Below the pieces are notes generated by a model. It worked only from the letters and a program-made list of their open reading frames with translations, was not told where the DNA came from and did not search any database. Of a stretch of DNA of 64,000 nt, positions 12,392 through 20,170 are shown one piece after another. Source of the stretch: Minisyncoccota bacterium (lineage in GTDB: Bacteria; Patescibacteriota; Minisyncoccia; Phycocordibacterales; UBA9973); contig JBAZVG010000001.1 in the NCBI GenBank assembly GCA_041661005.1, positions 196,917-260,916 on the forward strand, in the 5' to 3' direction. Both the position numbers and the translations under genes were made by a program. The first letter of the stretch is position 1. Each line of letters starts with the position of its first letter.

Positions 12392-13600
12392 TTGAAAAAT
12401 AATTTACCTCTTTCCTATATTGAAATTTCTAAAAAGAATTTGATTCACAATATCAAACAATTTAGGAATTTAATAAAAGCGGGAACTAAGATTTCTGTAG
12501 CCATAAAAGGCAATGCTTATGGCCATGGACAAAATATCGTAGCAAAAATTCTTGAGCCACACGTAGATTATTTTCAAGTAAATAACGTGGAAGAGCTTGA
12601 ATCATTGCGTAAAATAAGTCAGAAAAAAGCTTTTGTTTTAGGGTATGTGCAAAATTCGGATTTACCACGTGCTATACGATCAAATTGTATTTTGACTGTC
12701 TTCTCTCTCGGTCAATTAAAAGAAATAAACAAGATATCAAAGAAGCTTAAAAAAATACAAGAAGTTTGTGTCCCAGTTGATGCATATTTAGGGCGTGAAG
12801 GATTTTTATTTAGTGACTTGGGCGAGATTTTCGAAGAAATAAAAAAATCTGGATACGTAAAATTTACAAGTATCTATGCGCATTTTGCAAATATTGAAGA
12901 TGTGTCAAATTTTACTCATGCGCAAAAACAGATTAAGGAATATGAAAAAGCTTTAGAATTGGCGAAAATGTTCGGTTTTGAAAACCCGCCTAGACCCGTT
13001 TCGACGCAAGGCGAGCTCGGCGAGGCTGGCCCGCCTAGACTCGGCGAGGCTGGTTTGCAAACACATATATCTGCCACTTCTGGAATTTTGGTTTATGAAA
13101 AAGATAGTGGAATTAATTCAATCGTGCGATTGGGTATCGGCGCATACGGCATGTGGCCATCAGAACATTTAAAAAAAGTTTATGAAAATGAAAAATTCAA
13201 TCTGAAACCAGTGTTGTCATGGAAAACAAAGATCGCGCAAGTAAAAATCTTAGAAAAAGGGAATACCGTTGGTTATGGATTGACCTATAAAACAAATCAG
13301 AAAACAAAAATAGCAATTATCCCTCAAGGATATGCCGATGGTCTAGATCGTGGTCTTTCAAACAAGGGAGAGGTTTTGATCGGGGGCGCTCGATGTAAAA
13401 TCATAGGCAGGGTATCGATGAATATGTTTGCGGTTAATGTAAATCATTTGTCAGTTGTTAAAGTCGGCGACGAAGTTGTGATTATCGGAATTCAAAATAA
13501 AGAGAAAATTACGGCAGAGCAGGTGGCGAAAAAATTAGATACGATAAATTATGAAATTACCACGCGGATAAGTTCTTTATTGCCGAGAGTTATTACGTAG
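12392..13600 (+). CDS. alr: Alanine racemase
   Basis: PLP-lysine motif AIKGNAYGHG and the C-terminal beta domain. Carries in-frame 45-nt and 24-nt repeat copies (12985-13053). Confidence 0.85.
   Translation: MKNNLPLSYIEISKKNLIHNIKQFRNLIKAGTKISVAIKGNAYGHGQNIVAKILEPHVDYFQVNNVEELESLRKISQKKAFVLGYVQNSDLPRAIRSNCILTVFSLGQLKEINKISKKLKKIQEVCVPVDAYLGREGFLFSDLGEIFEEIKKSGYVKFTSIYAHFANIEDVSNFTHAQKQIKEYEKALELAKMFGFENPPRPVSTQGELGEAGPPRLGEAGLQTHISATSGILVYEKDSGINSIVRLGIGAYGMWPSEHLKKVYENEKFNLKPVLSWKTKIAQVKILEKGNTVGYGLTYKTNQKTKIAIIPQGYADGLDRGLSNKGEVLIGGARCKIIGRVSMNMFAVNVNHLSVVKVGDEVVIIGIQNKEKITAEQVAKKLDTINYEITTRISSLLPRVIT
12985..13053 (+). repeat. In-frame 45-nt palindromic element (12985-13029) plus adjacent 24-nt deletion derivative (13030-13053) inside alr
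   Basis: CCCGCCTAGACCCGTTTCGACGCAAGGCGAGCTCGGCGAGGCTGG followed by CCCGCCTAGACTCGGCGAGGCTGG. Translated as PRPVSTQGELGEAG then PPRLGEAG. Other copies lie at 14046, 29298 and 54860. Confidence 0.75.
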
Positions 13601-13965: not shown

Positions 13966-14883
13966 TTATTTGGTTAATAATTTCCGCTTTGTTTTTCGCT
14001 GTTGGTGAATTTTTGTCAGGCGAATTTTCTTAGAAGCCCGCCTAGACCCGCTTCGATGCGAAGCGAGCTCGGCGAGGCTGGCATCAAACCATTTTATTTC
14101 TTTATCGCGCTTAAACCATGTCATTTGACGTTTAGCGTATTTTAGAGTTTCAGTGACGACTTTTTCTGGCGTCGGTTTGTAGTATTCAAAACCCAATTCT
14201 TTCAGTCGTTTTTCTGACACACCATTCTTTTTTAACTTTTTAATTTCATTAAGTAAGCCATCTTTGAACATCTTTTTGACCCTTTTTTCTACTTTCTGTC
14301 TTAGTTTATCCTGCGGTAAATACAAGCCTATTTTTATAAATTTATACGGAGGAGACTTCTCCGTAATTTTTGGAACTTTACCGAGAGCTTTCACTATTTC
14401 AATTGCCCTGATTAATCTGATTTTATTTTTTGGGTCTATATTCTTTGCTCGCTCGGGGTCTATTCTTTTTAAATACTCAAATAATGCTATCGCTGATTTT
14501 GAGTATAGTTCTTTACGAAGCTTTTCATTTGGCGGAACTTCTGGGAAAATAATACCTTTAGTCATTGCATCAATGTAAAATCCCGTGCCTCCGCAAATTA
14601 TCGGAGTTTTACCTCGAGCGATTATTTCTTTTATTTTATCTTCAGCTAATTCTTTATATTGCGCTACAGTAAATTTTCTTTTAGGGTTCGCGATGTCTAG
14701 CAGATGATGGGGGACGCCTCGCATTTCTTTTCTTGTTATTTTTCCCGTGCCAATATCAAGGCCTTTGTAAACTTGTCGTGAATCAGCTGAAATTATTTCT
14801 CCATCTATTTTTTTAGCAATCTTTACGGCTAAATCACTTTTACCTGTAGCTGTTTGACCTAATATGATAATGATTGTGGGCAC
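13966..14883 (-). CDS. miaA: tRNA dimethylallyltransferase
   Basis: P-loop GQTATGKS, DSRQVYKGLDIGT(G)K. Likely GTG start at 14883 giving MPTIIIILGQTATGKS. The ORF track extends it to 15003 by reading through the intergenic repeat. The C-terminal tail contains an in-frame copy of the 45-nt element. Confidence 0.85.
   Translation of the reverse strand: MPTIIIILGQTATGKSDLAVKIAKKIDGEIISADSRQVYKGLDIGTGKITRKEMRGVPHHLLDIANPKRKFTVAQYKELAEDKIKEIIARGKTPIICGGTGFYIDAMTKGIIFPEVPPNEKLRKELYSKSAIALFEYLKRIDPERAKNIDPKNKIRLIRAIEIVKALGKVPKITEKSPPYKFIKIGLYLPQDKLRQKVEKRVKKMFKDGLLNEIKKLKKNGVSEKRLKELGFEYYKPTPEKVVTETLKYAKRQMTWFKRDKEIKWFDASLAELASHRSGSRRASKKIRLTKIHQQRKTKRKLLTK
14046..14090 (+). repeat. 45-nt palindromic element, copy within the miaA 3' region (read on the reverse strand as ASLAELASHRSGSRRA)
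   Basis: CCCGCCTAGACCCGCTTCGATGCGAAGCGAGCTCGGCGAGGCTGG, 45 nt, with internal hairpin CGCTTCG-ATG-CGAAGCG. Confidence 0.75.
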
Positions 14884-14907
14884 AGATTGAAAAACGAACT
14901 TTTTTTT

Positions 14908-14979
14908 GGTACGGATTTTTTGAAGCTTGAAAAATCCTGAAGTTCTCGGCTCGTCAGCCTCGAAACCCCGCAAAAAGTT
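14908..14979 (+). repeat. 72-bp intergenic repeat, copy 2 (in the miaA 5' leader / murA 3' flank)
   Basis: GGTACGGATTTTTTGAAGCTTGAAAAATCCTGAAGTTCTCGGCTCGTCAGCCTCGAAACCCCGCAAAAAGTTG. Confidence 0.65.
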
Positions 14980-15002
14980 GTTTTTTATTATTCGCCTCTG
15001 CA

Positions 15003-16538
15003 TTAATTTCCCTTGATTATTTTAATATCTGCGCCGATGGAATTCAATCGCTCGGCGATTTCTTCGTAACCACGATTTATCATATAAACGTTTCGTAGTA
15101 TTGAAGTGCCACTAGCTCCAAGCATTGAGATAAGTATTACCATTGATGGTCGTAAGGCCGGTGGGCAAACGACTTGAGCTCCCTTTAACGCTGTTCCGCC
15201 GTTGATATAGAGGCGATGTGGATCTGCGAGGGTAATATCTGCGCCTAGGCGGTTTAATTCAGTCAGATATATCGCGCGATTCTCATAAACCCAGTCATGG
15301 ATCATTGTTTGACCTTTGGCCTTTATGGCAATAGGCACAAAGAATGGCAGGTTGTCTATATTTATTCCGGGATAGGGATTGGAGTGTAATTTATCATAAA
15401 GAGCTTTTAGTTTGCTTGGGAAAATTTCTACATCTACTAATTTTGTTCGTCCATTAAAAGAATAATAAATTTTTGAAGCTTTGAATTTTAAATTCATTCT
15501 TTTTAGTTTTTCCAATTCTAAAGAAAGAAAGTCTATGGGGACGCGAGTGATGCTGAGTCTCGAGTCAGTGATAATTCCAGCAGAAATAAACATCATGGAT
15601 TCTATAGGGTCTTCACTGTTCCAATATTCTATATCTTTATTTATATTTGCTACGCCATGCACGGTCAGATTGGCAGTGCCGATACCTTCTATTTTTACAC
15701 CCAAAGCTTCAAGAAAAAAACAAACTTCTTGCACCATATAGTTTGCGCTGGCAAAGTTTATTTTTGTGGCGCCAGGTATAAGAGCAGAAGCCATCAAAAC
15801 ATTTTCACAGGCCGTGTCTCCAGATTCATACATTACTATTTCACTTGGTTTTAGTTTTCGTGAAGAGATTTCATAATTCTTTGCCGTAGTCTTTACTTTT
15901 ACCCCGAGTTTTTCTAGGGCGTAGATGTGGGCGGCTATTGTGCGTTTACCTAGATTGCATCCATGTGGATGGGGGAGAGAAAAGGTTGATAATTTATGAA
16001 TGAGTGGACCCATGAGCATTACGACTGAACGAGTTTTGACCGCTGACTCTATGTTTATATTTTCTAAATTAAATTTCTCTCCTGGTGTGATGGTTAAAGT
16101 ATTCTGGTTTAGCCATTTTATTGCGACCCCGATACTTTCGAGAATTTCAATGACCCGATACACTTCCTCGATTCGCGCTATGCCATGCAAGGTTGTTGTC
16201 CCCCTGTTTAAGAGCGAAGCGCAAAGAAGCCCGACCGAACCATTTTTAGAAAAATTAGTTTTGATAGTTCCACTTAATTTTTTCCCTCCATGCACTTCGA
16301 AATCGATCGAATCATTTATAGAAACTATTTGATGATCTAAAACATTGCTTATTTTTAAAAGTAATTCAGTTGTAAAATTTTGTTCGCCTTTTTCCATTCG
16401 GGGGATAGAACTTTGAGAAGTATTCAGCGCTTTAGCAAATTGCTCTTGAGTCATTCCGCGGTGTTCGCGCAATTCTTTGATAAAATAACCTATCTTTTGT
16501 TGTTCGGTCTGTACTGTTGATTTTATATTTTTTGTCAT
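15003..16538 (-). CDS. murA: UDP-N-acetylglucosamine 1-carboxyvinyltransferase (MurA) with an N-terminal HTH_XRE DNA-binding domain fusion
   Basis: N-terminal ~75 aa reads GYFIKELREHRGMTQEQFAKALNTSQSSIPRMEKGE (XRE HTH). The rest is an EPT fold with a GCNLGKR loop and ~420 aa MurA-like sequence. Confidence 0.8.
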   Translation of the reverse strand: MTKNIKSTVQTEQQKIGYFIKELREHRGMTQEQFAKALNTSQSSIPRMEKGEQNFTTELLLKISNVLDHQIVSINDSIDFEVHGGKKLSGTIKTNFSKNGSVGLLCASLLNRGTTTLHGIARIEEVYRVIEILESIGVAIKWLNQNTLTITPGEKFNLENINIESAVKTRSVVMLMGPLIHKLSTFSLPHPHGCNLGKRTIAAHIYALEKLGVKVKTTAKNYEISSRKLKPSEIVMYESGDTACENVLMASALIPGATKINFASANYMVQEVCFFLEALGVKIEGIGTANLTVHGVANINKDIEYWNSEDPIESMMFISAGIITDSRLSITRVPIDFLSLELEKLKRMNLKFKASKIYYSFNGRTKLVDVEIFPSKLKALYDKLHSNPYPGINIDNLPFFVPIAIKAKGQTMIHDWVYENRAIYLTELNRLGADITLADPHRLYINGGTALKGAQVVCPPALRPSMVILISMLGASGTSILRNVYMINRGYEEIAERLNSIGADIKIIKGN

Positions 16539-16548
16539 ATCAAACAGT

Positions 16549-16566
16549 ATATCTCATATATGAGAT
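16549..16566. promoter_or_regulatory. Perfect 18-bp palindrome TATCTCATATATGAGATA 11 bp upstream of the HTH-MurA start codon; candidate operator
   Basis: Read from the sequence. XRE-family HTH proteins typically bind such dyads. Confidence 0.4.
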
Positions 16567-16794
16567 AATGCAAGTTTATCGATTATCTGGAGTGTGGATA
16601 ACTCGCCAGAGGCGGGCAAGGTTTTATTTTAGCCCATGCCCCAGCGCTATTGACTTTTTTGCTAATATATGATAAGAAGAATGGGAAGTTCAAACTAACT
16701 GCTTTTTTAAAACCTGCAGTCAGGGTAATAGCTAAATCCTGAATGTTTAGGTAAGTTTAAAGCAACAAACGGACAGCACTTACAATCAGTAAAT

Positions 16795-17814
16795 ATGAGA
16801 AAGATCCAGTCCCTTATCGTGGCAGTGGCACTCGCGTGCTTCACGGCCCTAACCTCCGCTAACGCGGCGATGTCTGTGCAGGCGTTCTTTTCACCGGGAG
16901 TGCCCACAGATTCAACCAACAACCTGTCGAGCCAGCAGAACAAAATGGCTTTTCTCGACGCTGGCAACCTCGTGGGCGGAGCCTACGAGACAAATCCGGT
17001 GGCGATGAATCTCCCGAAGGTGCTGAAGATCGGGGATGTGTTGCGTTTCCGGCCGGGCTTTCCTGGTTGGCTTGCAGTGCCGACTTCGTCGGGACCGGAT
17101 GCATATGGCGCTCGTCTCTTCTGCATGGTGAAGGTCACCAGCACGGAGGCGAATGTGAATCCACGCCGGGTTCGGGTTCGCACATGGACGCCTCTGAATG
17201 ACGGTGTCCTTTGGTCAACCAACTGGTTGGCCAGCGAGACCATCACCATGTCGTCAACCCTAACGGGCCGTAAGTATGGCCCTGATGGAGTTCGAGGTGG
17301 ATCGGATGATCAGCCGTTCAGTTCCGGAACCTCGGACCTGAACTTCAACGAACTCATCACGGTCGGTCCCAGGATATTCCTTGACGTCTTCAATCAAGAA
17401 GATTTAAGTCTTGCGCTCAACTACTGGGATGGCAAAAGGCCCATGGAGTTACACGTCGAGGTCACGGTTTACGCCGCAGACATGGTGACGGTGCTCGGAA
17501 GGAAGGAAATTGTCCTCACCGCGCGGCCGTATCTCTTGATCGACCGTGGTGGTCTCAACTCCGAGATTCGGTACGTTCGCATGGAGAGTGAACGGGCGAA
17601 AAACTACCAGCTAATGTCATCGCTGTGGCCTGGAGGCGGTTACTCTGACGTTCCAGCCGGAGGACTTCTGCATGATGGCAGTGTTTACACGAACACCAAT
17701 CTTGCCGATCGTCAGTTCTTCGGAGTCCGGGAGACGTCGGTCTCGGCAGCGGGGTTAAGGTCGGCAACGTCGGCTTCAAAACCTTCCAGTGGAGTCGAAA
17801 GCGGAAATGAGTAA
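16795..17814 (+). CDS. Secreted hypothetical protein (signal peptide), encoded in a GC-rich (~57%) block
   Basis: N-terminus MRKIQSLIVAVALACFTALTSANA. Codon usage and GC differ from the surrounding AT-rich genome. Confidence 0.6.
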   Translation: MRKIQSLIVAVALACFTALTSANAAMSVQAFFSPGVPTDSTNNLSSQQNKMAFLDAGNLVGGAYETNPVAMNLPKVLKIGDVLRFRPGFPGWLAVPTSSGPDAYGARLFCMVKVTSTEANVNPRRVRVRTWTPLNDGVLWSTNWLASETITMSSTLTGRKYGPDGVRGGSDDQPFSSGTSDLNFNELITVGPRIFLDVFNQEDLSLALNYWDGKRPMELHVEVTVYAADMVTVLGRKEIVLTARPYLLIDRGGLNSEIRYVRMESERAKNYQLMSSLWPGGGYSDVPAGGLLHDGSVYTNTNLADRQFFGVRETSVSAAGLRSATSASKPSSGVESGNE

Positions 17815-17998
17815 GATGATGAATATGTTATGGGGGCGAGCGGATATCCCAATCGCCCCAGAGTTAGCGAGATGTGTGTCTCGCCTGATGAGCTCAAAAG
17901 AGCGAAAACTCTTGACAAACAATTGACTTTATGCTAGCGTGAGTAAATTGATAATTAATTAATAGGTCGCAGGTAATTATAAAGTAATAAATAAATAT

Positions 17999-18922
17999 AT
18001 GAGCAAGACAATAAAGACTTTTTTGAAATATGGATTTGTGGCAATTGTCGCTATTTTTATAGCCTTTTTGTCGTCAGTCGCTTTTGCTATAGATGAGGTA
18101 AATGTTAATCCAGCAAGTGATTCGGAAAATGGTAATGAAAACGCAAATCCAGGAAGTGGTTCAGAAAGAGGTAGTGAGGTAAATGTTAATCCAGGAAATG
18201 GTTCAGAAAACGGTAATGAAGGTGGAAATGTGGATACAATCCCTGGCGATGTAACTCCTCCAGATGGTGGACCTACCGGAGATAGCTCTGGCAGTAGAAG
18301 TACTGGTAGTAGCAGAACAAGCACCCAGAATATTTCTGACATTAAAGTTACGCTTGTTGGTTCTTCTGTCTCTATAACTAATCTCGTTCGCGGAGGTACT
18401 TACACTATTTCTTGGGACGCATCAGTTCAAAACGCAGACACTTCTATTAGTTTAGTTTCTTCTTATGGTTCAAATATTTTAATCGGCACAAGCAAGAATG
18501 CAAACGGTGCTAATACTTTAAATTGGACTGTTCCCACATATCTAGCTCTCGGTACTTACACTTTACGCTTTACGGATTCTAGTAATCGAATGACCGACGC
18601 TTCGAACGTGTATAGGATAGTATCTCGAAGATCTTCTAACGCAGGCGCAGAAGCTCTAGGAACTGGTGGCGGAAATTTAATTGACACAGATGGAGAATCC
18701 TCAACTGTTTCGCCTGATGAAACAGAAGTTTTACCATCGGAAGATTCGCAAATTTCGGACGAGACTTCTCCCGTAGATCAGACAGCCGCAGTTGGAAATG
18801 CTTTTACAGATTTCTTGAGTAATAAGTATATTTTGTGGTTCTTTGTTCTTCTACTTATCATTGTTGGCGCTCTTTTTTTTCAAGAACGCAAAGATAGCGA
18901 TAAATTCCCTTTTAACAAGTAA
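17999..18922 (+). CDS. Cell-surface repeat protein (signal peptide, EVNVNP.(S/N).SENGNE repeats, Ser/Thr/Gly-rich, C-terminal TM anchor)
   Basis: N-terminal TM/signal, three imperfect ~20-aa repeats, C-terminal hydrophobic ILWFFVLLLIIVGALFF. Confidence 0.6.
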   Translation: MSKTIKTFLKYGFVAIVAIFIAFLSSVAFAIDEVNVNPASDSENGNENANPGSGSERGSEVNVNPGNGSENGNEGGNVDTIPGDVTPPDGGPTGDSSGSRSTGSSRTSTQNISDIKVTLVGSSVSITNLVRGGTYTISWDASVQNADTSISLVSSYGSNILIGTSKNANGANTLNWTVPTYLALGTYTLRFTDSSNRMTDASNVYRIVSRRSSNAGAEALGTGGGNLIDTDGESSTVSPDETEVLPSEDSQISDETSPVDQTAAVGNAFTDFLSNKYILWFFVLLLIIVGALFFQERKDSDKFPFNK

Positions 18923-18944
18923 TTGTTTTACTAAACATTCAAAA

Positions 18945-18980
18945 ACAGCCTCGACTAACGTCGAGGCTGTTTTTGTTTTT
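18945..18980 (+). terminator. Rho-independent terminator
   Basis: ACAGCCTCGAC-TAAC-GTCGAGGCTGT followed by TTTTGTTTTT. Confidence 0.7.
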
Positions 18981-19054
18981 GATCTATGAATGATAATTTC
19001 AAGTTTTTCTTTGGCGGCATTCAAAATAAAATTAGTTTTCATAAATTTTTTAAT

Positions 19055-19249
19055 TTATGAAGGACCAATTTTCTGAATGTTATATTTTTTTACTTTATTT
19101 ATGACAAATCCAATAATTAATCCGATTAAACTAAATATGACGACCGGAGTGATGAACAAAATAATTTTAAAACCAATCATAGAGTCAGTAAATCCTGGAA
19201 TCCAACTAAGAAATAAAACAGGAATAATCCATAGACAGAATTCAACCAC
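19055..19249 (-). CDS. Small hydrophobic protein (64 aa, 2 TM), hypothetical
   Basis: ORF only; strongly hydrophobic. Confidence 0.3.
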   Translation of the reverse strand: MVEFCLWIIPVLFLSWIPGFTDSMIGFKIILFITPVVIFSLIGLIIGFVINKVKKYNIQKIGPS

Positions 19250-19267
19250 TGCGATTGAAAGTTGTAA

Positions 19268-19450
19268 TTAATTTTCACATCCGTTTGGTCCACCAGGAGA
19301 AGTATGGCAATTAGTTATATTACTGTAAATTCCGAAAATTATTCCAATGCATAAACCAATGAGCAACCCCTTTTTAGTTATTGACATATTTTTGTTATTT
19401 AATGATAGATTTTTTGTATATTTTAAAATAATTAAAAAATCTTCTTCCAA
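19268..19450 (-). CDS. Small membrane protein (60 aa), hypothetical
   Basis: ORF only. Confidence 0.25.
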   Translation of the reverse strand: MEEDFLIILKYTKNLSLNNKNMSITKKGLLIGLCIGIIFGIYSNITNCHTSPGGPNGCEN

Positions 19451-19506
19451 TTATATTCTATATGGCAATTAATCTCAAGCTAGTGCAAAGGAAAAGAATC
19501 AAACTC

Positions 19507-20046
19507 TCATAATTTCCAGAAGTTGATAATTTTTATAAATTTTTCCACATTCTTTGAAATTCTAATTATATATTTAACTCTATTTTTCTTTATGTCCAAG
19601 ACTTTTCTTGCTTTTATTGCAAAGCCAATTTCTTGGAGCATATCCTCTATATCTCTAATTAGAGTATAACAAACTGACGTAAAATTTACCATTTTGTAGC
19701 CTCGATCACTATAGATTGATCCGTCTGTTTGGAATAATCCTCGCAAACATTCTTTTCTATAAACCTTATTTTCCTTGATCCAGCTAGGCACGCCTACCTT
19801 CTGTTTAATTTTTGAACCACCTTTAGCTCCCCATCCCAATATTTTTTCTAAATCATTTGAATAAATACATATGTCTAAGGCATTAACTCGATCTGTGATA
19901 GAAATTTTGTTTTGAGTAAAAATTATTTTTAGATTTTTAATTATATTTTCTACAATTAGAGGATACTTTTTATCACAAGTAATTCTAAGTCTAACAGCTC
20001 TTCCATTTGGATTCGACAAATTACCATCCCCGAGAGCTATGCCCAT
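19507..20046 (-). CDS. LAGLIDADG-family homing endonuclease (double-motif, free-standing)
   Basis: Two LAGLIDADG motifs: IMGIALGDGNL and LRGLFQTDGSIY. The ORF track starts it at 20127, but that extension is antisense to tRNA-Leu, so the internal ATG at 20046 is more plausible. Confidence 0.7.
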   Translation of the reverse strand: MGIALGDGNLSNPNGRAVRLRITCDKKYPLIVENIIKNLKIIFTQNKISITDRVNALDICIYSNDLEKILGWGAKGGSKIKQKVGVPSWIKENKVYRKECLRGLFQTDGSIYSDRGYKMVNFTSVCYTLIRDIEDMLQEIGFAIKARKVLDIKKNRVKYIIRISKNVEKFIKIINFWKL

Positions 20047-20086
20047 TATGTAGGCTATAGATTTTTTATTATTTATATGAGGCAAG

Positions 20087-20170
20087 TGCCGGGAGGGAGA
20101 CTCGAACTCCCACGGGGTTGCCCCCAAACGATTTTGAGTCGTTCGCGTAAACCAATTCCGCCATCCCGGC
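20087..20170 (-). tRNA. tRNA-Leu (anticodon CAA), type II with long variable arm
   Basis: Reverse complement reads GCCGGGA ... anticodon loop CUCAAAA ... variable stem GGGG-GCAA-CCCC ... T-loop TTCGAGT ... TCCCGGC-A. Confidence 0.8.

What the first reader, a model, noticed from the sequence alone, without database searches (positions are those of the whole stretch)
15003..16566. MurA fused to an N-terminal XRE-type HTH domain, with a perfect 18-bp palindrome in its own promoter
The enolpyruvyl transferase that commits UDP-GlcNAc to peptidoglycan synthesis carries a ~75-aa Cro/C1-type HTH (..QEQFAKALNTSQSSIPRMEKGE..) at its N-terminus. The sequence TATCTCATATATGAGATA sits 11 bp upstream of the start codon. 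This suggests an enzyme that autoregulates its own transcription, a one-component metabolic-sensing regulator. That would be unusual for MurA and potentially a lineage-specific way to control cell-wall flux in a small genome with few regulators.
Basis: partly seen in the sequence, partly recalled or inferred. Interest (0 to 1): 0.7.

Follow-up and report, generated by a model that had tools for sequence, protein, structure and literature searches.

The report
MurA enzyme fused to its own repressor
The first enzyme of bacterial cell-wall synthesis (MurA) is here fused to a DNA-binding domain, and a conserved palindrome in its own promoter suggests the enzyme represses its own gene, a design found in many ultra-small bacteria and in some culturable actinobacteria but not in any paper I could find.

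Summary
Window 15003-16538 (minus strand) encodes a 511-aa protein: an XRE/Cro-C1 HTH (aa ~12-68), a short linker, and a full-length MurA with every catalytic residue intact. The perfect 18-bp palindrome TATCTCATATATGAGATA (16550-16567) lies 11 nt before the ATG and is unique in the 64 kb.

It is not an assembly artefact. More than 350 independent fused proteins exist, in many Patescibacteria lineages and in cultured Actinomycetota (Aeromicrobium, Brachybacterium, Nonomuraea).

The palindrome (consensus TATMTCAYATRTGAKATA) precedes the fused gene, or heads its operon, in:
- every one of the 64 related loci with upstream DNA;
- 26 metagenome contigs holding the fused gene;
- 6 of 6 distant homologues fetched by protein identity alone (31-51% identical, genome GC 33-70%).

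It fills the spacer between a -35 and a -10 box, and the ATG follows 6-8 nt later, so the mRNA is probably leaderless. In half the relatives it also abuts a divergent murB.

A minority of fused proteins have lost the catalytic residues but keep the HTH and the palindrome. One of these sits beside a canonical murA-murB pair.

Best reading: a bifunctional enzyme and autorepressor, in the manner of BirA, NadR or PutA. Ligand sensing is untested, and the "small-genome, lineage-specific" idea is wrong.

The parts
15003..16538 (-). CDS of the 511-aa HTH-MurA fusion protein (stop codon included)
   Evidence: An identical protein, P0001, is annotated by NCBI as MurA of a Candidatus Paceibacterota MAG on an 813-kb contig.
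16335..16505 (-). XRE/Cro-C1 helix-turn-helix domain (aa 12-68)
   Evidence: Pfam HTH_3 covers aa 20-68. The AlphaFold model has helices at 12-26, 31-38, 44-49 and 57-67. Its closest solved relatives are R-M controller proteins, an ICEBs1 Xre-family regulator, PezA and HipB.
16392..16448 (-). Helix 2, turn and recognition helix (aa 31-49, ..QEQFAKALNTSQSSIPRME..)
   Evidence: Q42, R47, E49 and N54 are invariant in 240/240 close and actinobacterial homologues and nearly invariant in the most distant ones.
16302..16334 (-). Linker between the HTH and MurA (aa 69-79)
   Evidence: pLDDT is below 50 at aa 72-75. HTH-less relatives begin just before the following DF.V.GG motif.
15015..16301 (-). MurA (UDP-GlcNAc 1-carboxyvinyltransferase) domain, aa 80-508
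   Evidence: NF006873 scores 316.5 bits against a cut-off of 297. The best solved match by sequence is C. jejuni MurA, E 2e-55. Foldseek TM-score is 0.85-0.90 to solved MurAs.
15957..15959 (-). Codon of Cys194, the equivalent of the catalytic, fosfomycin-targeted Cys115 of E. coli MurA
   Evidence: The motif GCNLGKR aligns with GCAIGxR of solved MurAs. C194 and R199 are invariant in 240/240 homologues. K98, N99, D310 and R463 are also invariant; R421 is conserved in 239/240.
16550..16567 (.). Perfect 18-bp palindrome TATCTCATATATGAGATA, the proposed operator of the HTH domain
   Evidence: It is unique in the window. It is conserved in 64/64 related loci, in 26 metagenome loci and in 6/6 distant homologues.
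16546..16551 (-). Inferred -10 hexamer TATACT, overlapping the last 2 nt of the palindrome; the ATG follows 7 nt later, so the mRNA is probably leaderless
   Evidence: A conserved TA(T/A)A(A/C)T occupies this position in the alignment. The distance from the palindrome end to the start codon is 10-13 nt in 42 of 65 loci. This is an inference with no transcript data.
16568..16573 (-). Inferred -35 hexamer TTGCAT (16-nt spacer)
   Evidence: TTGCA(A/T) is conserved directly upstream of the palindrome; it reads TTGACA in L203. The simple promoter scan did not report it, because it matches only 3 of 6 consensus positions.
13966..15003 (-). miaA, which probably shares the transcript: its ATG overlaps the murA stop codon (TAATG)
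   Evidence: ORF coordinates come and the sequence. The MiaA model TIGR00174 scores 240 bits against a cut-off of 148.65.

Best explanation
The gene encodes a bifunctional protein. Its C-terminal 430 residues are a catalytically competent MurA. Its N-terminal XRE-type HTH most likely binds, as a dimer, the 18-bp palindrome between the -35 and -10 boxes of the gene's own promoter, which probably makes a leaderless mRNA. Bound protein would block RNA polymerase, so MurA represses its own synthesis and holds its dosage steady. In this window the same promoter probably also drives the overlapping downstream miaA. In about half of the relatives the palindrome also abuts the -10 box of a divergent leaderless murB, so there the protein would control the first two committed steps of peptidoglycan precursor synthesis.

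Shown by sequence and comparison:
- the fusion is real;
- the catalytic and HTH residues are intact;
- the palindrome is conserved and always heads the transcription unit that holds the fused gene.

Inferred, not shown:
- DNA binding by this HTH, dimer stoichiometry, and repression rather than activation;
- the leaderless transcription start;
- any modulation by substrates or products.
For: 1. The fusion is genuine and ancient. All 120 best hits (80-100% identity, separate assemblies) carry HTH plus EPSP_synthase, as do 120 actinobacterial proteins and 118 further Patescibacteria proteins. Fused cluster representatives reach down to 31% identity.

2. The enzyme part is intact. K98, N99, C194, R199, D310 and R463 are invariant and R421 is conserved in 239/240 homologues. 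They correspond to E. coli K22, N23, C115, R120, D305, R397 and R371; the first four and the last two are placed by the PDB alignment. NF006873 scores above its cut-off. The model matches the MurA fold.

3. The palindrome travels with the fused gene.
- There is exactly one copy per locus, upstream of the gene, in 64/64 loci that have upstream DNA.
- Information content is near maximal across the 18-22 bp block and close to zero in the flanks.
- It is still present where other genes or 120-180 nt leaders lie between it and murA; there it heads the operon or stays next to murB.
- It is present in GC-rich genomes where it is the only AT-rich stretch: L155 (GC 0.64), L193 (0.68), Aeromicrobium wangtongii (0.70) and Nonomuraea (0.69).
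- It was found in 6 of 6 distant homologues fetched by protein identity rather than by motif.

4. The HTH recognition residues are as conserved as the site itself.

5. The position fits repression: the site fills the -35/-10 spacer and overlaps the -10 box.

6. Degenerate members have lost K22, C115, R120 and R397 and score below the MurA cut-off, yet they keep the HTH and the palindrome. One sits between a canonical murA-murB pair and a ddl/Mur-ligase operon. In those members the regulatory half is the part that persists.
Against: - No binding, transcript or enzyme data exist; everything is comparative.
- Part of the palindrome's conservation could reflect promoter function. In the TATATCA...TGATATA form, with the usual flanking AT, each arm reads as an extended -10 (TGATATAAT).
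- The loss of the palindrome in the 14 HTH-less relatives is not independent evidence. The site lies 11 nt from the HTH codons, so a single deletion removes both.
- Solved MurAs are mostly monomers (my recollection), so the dimerisation a palindromic site needs is unexplained.
- The simple promoter scan did not call the proximal promoter. It found a weak candidate about 125 nt upstream instead, no more than chance would give.
- Whether this genome has a second murA outside the 64 kb could not be checked.
Confidence: 0.7

Rival explanations
1. The palindrome is a symmetric bidirectional promoter: two back-to-back extended -10 elements serving the divergent murB and murA. On this reading it is not a protein operator, and the HTH does something else.
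For: With the usual flanking AT, each arm of the TATATCATATATGATATA form reads TGATATAAT. In 34/66 loci murB starts 8 nt from the left arm and murA 10-13 nt from the right arm.
Against: Both arms stay conserved in about 30 loci, this window included, that have no divergent gene nearby. They also stay conserved in Aeromicrobium and Nonomuraea, where the upstream gene points the same way. Promoter spacers are not normally sequence-conserved, yet the central TCATATATGA is nearly invariant. The two readings can coexist: an operator laid over two -10 boxes.
Confidence: 0.1
2. The palindrome works at the RNA level, as a 5'-UTR hairpin or as a terminator of the upstream gene, and not as a DNA operator.
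For: The perfect version can fold as a 7-bp hairpin (-5.4 kcal/mol). A weak promoter-like site exists about 125 nt upstream.
Against: There is no compensatory variation. Positions 4 and 15 vary independently, and the commonest form (24/65) is the asymmetric TATATC...GAGATA, which folds at only -0.6 kcal/mol. No T-run follows the palindrome. An AT stem would be a very weak terminator in genomes of 68-70% GC. The conserved -10 to ATG spacing places most of the site upstream of the transcript.
Confidence: 0.05
3. A separate transcription factor binds the palindrome, and the fused HTH has a different target or a non-DNA role.
For: The same 18-mer occurs 11 nt upstream of an unrelated XRE gene (L160). 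Other XRE genes lie near some copies in metagenomes, so such sites are not unique to this protein.
Against: Across two phyla and GC contents from 0.32 to 0.70, the only constant partner of the site is the fused HTH itself. No other regulator gene is conserved in the neighbourhoods. Autoregulatory sites next to their own genes are the rule for XRE proteins (established knowledge).
Confidence: 0.08
4. In this window the protein is mainly a regulator. Its MurA-like part would only sense ligands, and the real enzyme would be encoded elsewhere in the genome.
For: Degenerate fused members exist, and one lies beside a canonical murA. The window protein misses the strict TIGR01072 equivalog cut-off (308.5 bits against 392.7). 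The rest of the genome could not be searched.
Against: Every catalytic residue is kept, and each is invariant or nearly so across the 120 closest relatives. NF006873 scores above its cut-off, like the stand-alone MurA of L203. No second murA lies in the 64 kb. Closely related genomes carry the same MurA domain without the HTH as an ordinary murA.
Confidence: 0.07

Closest known systems
Bifunctional enzyme/repressors ('trigger enzymes'): BirA (biotin ligase and bio-operon repressor), NadR, PutA, and archaeal RbkR (riboflavin kinase and regulator, PMC5397151)
   Same: An active metabolic enzyme is fused to a DNA-binding domain, and its operator sits in promoters of the same pathway, including its own gene. 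In the known cases the enzyme's ligand state sets DNA binding.
   Different: The enzyme here is MurA, the first committed step of peptidoglycan synthesis. My literature searches found no fused DNA-binding form of it. Ligand control is not shown here. The DNA-binding domain is an XRE/Cro-C1 HTH.
Small autoregulatory XRE-family proteins: restriction-modification controller (C) proteins such as C.Esp1396I and C.AhdI, and the antitoxin repressors HipB and PezA
   Same: These are the closest solved relatives of the HTH domain (couple_hipB model, E 1e-10). They bind palindromes overlapping their own promoters as dimers. From memory, the HipB operator is TATCC-N8-GGATA, which resembles TATCTC-N6-GAGATA here.
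   Different: Those proteins are 70-160 aa stand-alone regulators or antitoxins with their own dimer interfaces. Here the HTH is tethered to a 430-aa enzyme, and no toxin or restriction-modification partner is present.
Known controls of MurA: ClpCP/ReoM/PrkA-dependent proteolysis in Firmicutes (PMC8959180), CwlM activation in mycobacteria (PMC12723410), and feedback by UDP-MurNAc with a covalent PEP-Cys115 adduct (PDB 3su9, 3swd, 8d84; titles)
   Same: The goal is the same: limiting flux at the committed step of cell-wall precursor synthesis. The UDP-MurNAc-bound closed state offers an obvious candidate signal.
   Different: All of those act after translation and through separate proteins or small molecules. 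Here control would be transcriptional and built into the enzyme's own polypeptide.
Canonical stand-alone MurA (E. coli or E. cloacae MurA; MurA1/MurA2 of Gram-positives)
   Same: The fold and the catalytic residues K22, C115, R120, D305 and R397 are the same.
   Different: Identity to canonical MurAs is only about 30-36%. The fused family and its close unfused relatives form a separate higher-scoring group, and the fused members add 78 N-terminal residues. The actinobacterial members carry Cys, whereas, from memory, mycobacterial housekeeping MurA has Asp at this position.

Membership tests
MurA (UDP-N-acetylglucosamine 1-carboxyvinyltransferase) | Scores above the curated cut-off of a MurA family model | tested here: met
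   NF006873 (subfamily model) scores 316.5 bits against a cut-off of 297.
MurA (UDP-N-acetylglucosamine 1-carboxyvinyltransferase) | Scores above the strict equivalog cut-off (TIGR01072) | tested here: not met
   308.5 bits against a cut-off of 392.7. The stand-alone MurA of L203 also misses it (312 bits), so this reflects a divergent clade and not the fusion.
MurA (UDP-N-acetylglucosamine 1-carboxyvinyltransferase) | Catalytic residues equivalent to E. coli K22, C115 (or Asp), R120, D305 and R397 | tested here: met
   K98, C194, R199, D310 and R463 are placed by the alignment to solved MurAs and are invariant in 240/240 homologues.
MurA (UDP-N-acetylglucosamine 1-carboxyvinyltransferase) | Two-domain enolpyruvyl transferase fold | tested here: met
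   The AlphaFold model has pLDDT 86.3 and pTM 0.80. Foldseek TM-score to MurA structures is 0.85-0.90, normalised by target length.
MurA (UDP-N-acetylglucosamine 1-carboxyvinyltransferase) | Pathway context (next to other early mur genes) | tested here: met
   murB is divergent and adjacent in 34/66 related loci. ddl and a Mur ligase lie downstream in L203. In this window the neighbours are miaA and, 1.4 kb away, alr.
MurA (UDP-N-acetylglucosamine 1-carboxyvinyltransferase) | Transfers enolpyruvate from PEP to UDP-GlcNAc | not testable with these tools
   Needs an enzyme assay or complementation.
XRE / Cro-C1 HTH transcription regulators (Pfam HTH_3) | Scores above the Pfam gathering cut-off and has the helical HTH architecture | tested here: met
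   HTH_3 scores 52.1 bits against 23. The model predicts four helices at aa 12-67.
XRE / Cro-C1 HTH transcription regulators (Pfam HTH_3) | A palindromic site in or next to its own promoter, conserved among orthologues | tested here: met
XRE / Cro-C1 HTH transcription regulators (Pfam HTH_3) | Sequence-specific DNA binding as a dimer | not testable with these tools
   Needs EMSA, footprinting or a complex structure.
Bifunctional enzyme/repressor (BirA, NadR, PutA type) | An intact enzyme active site and a DNA-binding domain in one polypeptide | tested here: met
Bifunctional enzyme/repressor (BirA, NadR, PutA type) | Operator in promoters of genes of the enzyme's own pathway | tested here: met
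   The site lies in the protein's own promoter everywhere. It also lies in murB promoters, at a canonical murA-murB pair in L203, and ahead of NUDIX/nucleotidyltransferase/murA operons.
Bifunctional enzyme/repressor (BirA, NadR, PutA type) | DNA binding switched by the enzyme's substrate, product or catalytic state | not testable with these tools
   Needs binding assays with and without UDP-GlcNAc, PEP, UDP-MurNAc and fosfomycin.

The most novel reading that the evidence does not exclude
The MurA moiety would act as the sensor of a one-protein feedback loop. Its ligand state (open apo form versus closed form with UDP-GlcNAc, or the UDP-MurNAc plus PEP-Cys adduct 'dormant' form) would set the HTH's affinity for the palindrome. 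Transcription of murA, murB and linked precursor genes would then track the precursor pool or inhibition of the active site (for example by fosfomycin). The catalytically dead fused proteins would be this sensor reduced to a pure regulator. That would be a new, widespread class of cell-wall precursor-sensing transcription factor, shared by Patescibacteria and some Actinomycetota.
Probability: 0.35. Interest if true: 0.8.

Novelty: new variant of a known kind. Interest (0 to 1): 0.62.

Why it matters
How bacteria set flux into peptidoglycan at MurA is an active question. The known answers (proteolysis, kinases, protein activators, product inhibition) all act after translation. This finding would add a direct transcriptional route in which the enzyme carries its own repressor domain and operator.

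For Patescibacteria, which have few regulators and are mostly uncultured, it would be one of the few regulator-operator pairs predictable with confidence. The same module occurs in cultured Aeromicrobium, Brachybacterium and Nonomuraea, so it can be tested at the bench now.

The dead-enzyme members offer a natural example of an enzyme turning into a sensor domain. MurA is also the fosfomycin target, and from memory its overexpression gives fosfomycin resistance, so an autoregulated MurA may bear on tolerance to that drug.

Tried and rejected
- **Assembly artefact or frameshift:** rejected. The fusion is one uninterrupted ORF in hundreds of independent assemblies.
- **Chance palindrome:** rejected.
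- **Co-loss of HTH and palindrome as proof of a functional link:** 0 of 14 HTH-less relatives carry the palindrome, and bootstrapped gene trees need 6-11 gains or losses. I do not count this as independent evidence. The site is 11 nt from the HTH codons, and in most of the HTH-less loci murA starts within about 10 nt of tRNA-Leu, so one deletion explains both losses.
- **Wider regulon:** no second site was found in the 64-kb window, in about 600 kb of related loci, or in the six distant loci. The roughly 90 motif hits in metagenomes that are not next to the fused gene are a mixed set of AT-rich hairpins, repeats and sites of other XRE genes. Whole genomes could not be scanned.
- **Origin of replication:** a perfect DnaA-box sequence lies 20 nt upstream of the -35, but such boxes are not enriched in the window.
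- **Single-sequence AlphaFold run:** useless (pLDDT 32.6). The run with an alignment worked, but it says nothing about dimers or docking of the HTH.
- **Literature:** four searches for a described HTH-MurA found nothing relevant.
Full report
**What is in the window.** The minus strand of 15003-16538 holds one uninterrupted 511-codon ORF. It begins at the first ATG after an in-frame TGA that lies inside the palindrome.
- Pfam places an XRE/Cro-C1 HTH (HTH_3) at aa 20-68 (E 6.5e-14) and EPSP_synthase at aa 83-498 (E 8e-43).
- NCBIfam's MurA subfamily model NF006873 scores 316.5 bits against a cut-off of 297. The strict equivalog model TIGR01072 is missed (308.5 against 392.7).
- All strong matches among solved structures are MurAs, starting at query residue 79-86. 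No solved chain covers the HTH and MurA parts together.
- An AlphaFold model built on a 92-sequence alignment (pLDDT 86.3, pTM 0.80) shows four helices at aa 12-67, a low-confidence linker at aa 72-75, and a MurA body that superposes on solved MurAs with TM-score 0.85-0.90.
- The palindrome TATCTCATATATGAGATA occupies 16550-16567, with 11 nt between it and the ATG. It is the only match in the 64 kb even at 3 mismatches, against 0.08 expected.

The only additions are that the gene is on the minus strand and that the stated interval stops one base short of the palindrome's end.

**The fusion is real and widespread.** An identical protein is on record from an 813-kb contig of a Candidatus Paceibacterota MAG. 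The 120 best database hits (80-100% identity, from many separate assemblies) all carry both domains.

A scan of one genome per species returned 80 loci.
- 66 encode the fused protein.
- 14 encode a closely related MurA (80-86% identical) with only a short lysine-rich N-terminal tail.

A library of 1.84 billion representatives holds fused full-length proteins down to 31% identity. Ordinary MurAs score far lower, at about 30-36% identity.

A search seeded with a fused protein from a GC-rich metagenome contig returned 120 fused proteins. The named ones come from cultured Aeromicrobium and Brachybacterium and from Nocardioidaceae. Another cluster of 246 members is from Nonomuraea. A third search returned 118 further fused proteins from Liptonbacteria, Taylorbacteria, Colwellbacteria, Doudnabacteria and other Patescibacteria.

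The idea that this is a special device of one small-genome lineage does not hold.

**The enzyme half looks active.** By the alignment to solved MurAs, K98, N99, C194 and R199 correspond to E. coli K22, N23, C115 and R120, and D310, R421 and R463 to D305, R371 and R397. In the 120 close relatives and the 120 actinobacterial proteins, six of these are invariant and R421 is conserved in 239 of 240. No second murA lies in the window.

**The palindrome follows the fused gene.** I scanned each related locus (about 7.5 kb) for the degenerate consensus TATMTCAYATRTGAKATA.
- 64 fused loci have upstream DNA, and every one has exactly one copy, upstream of the gene.
- The two fused loci without a copy are cut by a contig end 18-27 nt before the gene.
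- The 14 HTH-less loci have none.

Aligned on the motif, information content is near maximal over the palindrome and over a flanking TTGCA(A/T) and TA(T/A)A(A/C)T. It falls to almost nothing outside.

Where the site lies 120-1300 nt from murA, one of two things is seen:
- Co-oriented genes intervene (a P-loop kinase-like ORF, a second unannotated ORF, or NUDIX plus a sugar-phosphate nucleotidyltransferase). The first of them usually starts 10-11 nt after the palindrome end, as murA does elsewhere (23 nt in L064).
- A 120-180 nt leader has been inserted.

In either case the site stays at the head of the transcription unit.

In 26 of them the motif sits directly upstream of a fused gene, and 3 more are truncated cases. 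The 26 include proteins only 39-60% identical to the window's and contigs of 64-68% GC.

As a test not biased by the motif, I fetched six distant fused genes by protein identity alone (31-51% identical to the window protein; locus GC 0.33-0.70). All six carry the site with at most 2 mismatches.
- In five it lies 4-19 nt before the annotated ATG. In L204 it lies about 30 nt before the first gene of the operon.
- Aeromicrobium wangtongii reads TTATCTCATATCTGAGATAA, 11 nt before the ATG.
- Nonomuraea sp. NEAU-A123 reads CATCTCATATGTGAGATATG, 12 nt before the ATG.

An AT-rich 18-mer held in place in genomes of 70% GC is under selection.

**Promoter anatomy.** In gene orientation the window reads TTGCAT, then TATCTCATATATGAGA, then TATACT, then GTTTGAT, then ATG. 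That is a -35-like hexamer, a 16-nt spacer filled by the palindrome, a -10 that shares its first two bases with the palindrome, and 7 nt to the start codon.

The distance from the palindrome end to the start codon is 10-13 nt in 42 of 65 loci, and there is no Shine-Dalgarno sequence in the window's 11-nt gap. That points to a leaderless mRNA. This is an inference: no transcript data exist, and the simple promoter scan did not call this promoter because the -35 matches only 3 of 6 positions.

In 34 of the 66 fused loci, murB (TIGR00179 above its cut-off) is transcribed divergently. Its ATG usually lies 8 nt from the left end of the palindrome. On that strand the left arm, with the two bases beyond it, reads TGATATAAT followed by 6 nt and the ATG. 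A protein bound to the palindrome would sit on both -10 boxes. In the window there is no murB nearby. The downstream miaA overlaps the murA stop codon (TAATG) and probably shares the transcript.

**Operator or merely promoter?** With the usual flanking AT, each arm of the symmetric form reads as an extended -10, so a bidirectional promoter is a fair rival. Three observations count against it as the whole story:
- Both arms are kept in about 30 loci, including this window, that have no divergent gene close by.
- Both arms are kept in the actinobacteria, where the upstream gene is co-oriented.
- The central TCATATATGA, which belongs to neither -10, is the most invariant part.

An RNA hairpin is unlikely. 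Positions 4 and 15 vary independently, the commonest variant (24 of 65) is asymmetric and folds at only -0.6 kcal/mol, and no compensatory change is seen.

The recognition-helix residues Q42, R47, E49 and N54 are as invariant as the site. The nearest solved HTH relatives are small autoregulators that bind palindromes over their own promoters.

**A caution about the HTH-less relatives.** Bootstrapped neighbour-joining trees of the MurA domain need 6-11 changes of HTH state in all 60 replicates, which suggests repeated loss. In most of these loci murA begins within about 10 nt of the end of a tRNA-Leu gene. In fused relatives that have this tRNA, it ends 30-60 nt before the -35. One deletion would therefore remove the promoter, the palindrome and the HTH codons together. 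Their joint absence follows from physical linkage, and I do not use it as evidence of function.

**Dead-enzyme members.** Fourteen fused proteins from several clusters have lost most of K22, C115, R120 and R397 while keeping the HTH residues. Three that were scored fall well below the MurA cut-off (132-235 bits).

One of them, P0249, sits in locus L203.
- On one side lies a divergent canonical murA (325 bits, Cys and Arg intact) followed by murB.
- On the other side lie a D-Ala-D-Ala ligase fusion and a Mur ligase.
- The palindrome lies in the 60-nt region between them, just after a perfect TTGACA.

In these lineages the DNA-binding half and its site persisted after the catalytic half decayed. 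This is the best available sign that regulation is a real function of the family, and it is at least consistent with the MurA fold serving as a ligand sensor.

**Mechanism and confidence.** I conclude that the window encodes an active MurA that also represses its own promoter through its N-terminal HTH. In relatives, the same site extends this control to murB and to linked precursor genes.
- DNA binding to this site: likely, about 0.8.
- Repression rather than activation: fairly likely, from the site's position.
- Modulation by UDP-GlcNAc, PEP, UDP-MurNAc or fosfomycin: an attractive guess, about 0.35. The closed UDP-MurNAc/PEP-adduct state is documented in solved structures (titles).
- How a normally monomeric enzyme would supply the dimer that a palindrome implies is unknown.

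**Comparison with what is known.** The design matches bifunctional enzyme/repressors such as BirA, NadR, PutA and archaeal RbkR (PMC5397151, found). The enzyme differs, and ligand switching, the defining behaviour of that class, is untested here.

Known MurA controls act after translation through other proteins (PMC8959180, PMC12723410). Searches of the paper library found no description of an HTH-fused MurA. Public databases already hold hundreds of such sequences, annotated as MurA or as 'helix-turn-helix domain-containing protein'.

I therefore rate it a new variant of a known kind. It is of solid interest to people who study cell-wall regulation or Patescibacteria, and it is directly testable in cultured actinobacteria.

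Noticed in passing
window 16620-20085: About 3.5 kb lies between tRNA-Leu(caa) (20086-20170, minus strand) and the murA promoter. In relatives the tRNA ends 30-60 nt before the -35. The stretch holds a LAGLIDADG-type ORF right after the tRNA (19507-20082, Pfam 9e-12), a repeat-rich secreted or membrane ORF (17999-18922), and an ORF of 49-56% GC (16795-17814, against about 37% background) with no family match. It looks like an insertion at a tRNA gene.
   Followed up: partly
window 12982-13030 and 14034-14082: A 49-nt GC-rich repeat (90% identical) lies once inside alanine racemase, where it adds about 25 residues (..PPRPVSTQGELGEAG..) that the L019 orthologue lacks, and once inside the 3' part of miaA. 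These may be small in-frame insertion elements.
   Followed up: no
window 16593-16601 (minus strand); also L001-L018: A perfect DnaA-box consensus TTATCCACA lies 20 nt upstream of the inferred -35. A similar (G)TTATCCACA recurs at variable distance upstream of the palindrome in many relatives that lack a divergent murB. In murB-bearing loci, GATATCCACA is part of the murB coding start. Such boxes are not enriched in the window (21 found against 17.9 expected).
   Followed up: partly
window 15001-15005: The murA stop codon and the miaA start codon overlap (TAATG). The tRNA-modification gene miaA is therefore probably co-transcribed with, and co-regulated by, the HTH-murA promoter.
   Followed up: no
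L203 558-7321: A catalytically degenerate HTH-MurA (P0249) lies back to back with a canonical murA-murB pair, with the palindrome between them. It is followed by a D-Ala-D-Ala ligase fused to a C39 peptidase domain and by a Mur ligase. Thirteen other fused proteins have likewise lost catalytic residues.
   Followed up: partly
L032, L047, L049, L058 (between the palindrome and murA): Leaders of 120-180 nt, flanked by inverted repeats of the type CCCGTTAGAGA...TCTCTAACGGG, have been inserted between the conserved promoter and the murA start. They look like miniature inverted-repeat elements or structured leaders.
   Followed up: no
L036, L057, L060, L065-L067, L069, L072, L076, L078-L080: In most HTH-less relatives murA starts within about 10 nt of the 3' end of tRNA-Leu and has no promoter of its own (synteny relA, parB, tRNA-Leu, murA). 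This implies co-transcription with the tRNA from a TTGATT...TGTGTAAAAT promoter.
   Followed up: partly
L160 844-861: The identical 18-mer TATCTCATATATGAGATA lies 11 nt upstream of an unrelated 190-aa XRE-family gene in a metagenome contig. The same operator type may therefore serve other XRE regulators.
   Followed up: no
L202 5595-6986: In Nonomuraea sp. NEAU-A123 the fused gene is followed by a phage-type integrase and a small XRE gene. This hints that the module can sit on mobile DNA and may have moved between phyla.
   Followed up: no
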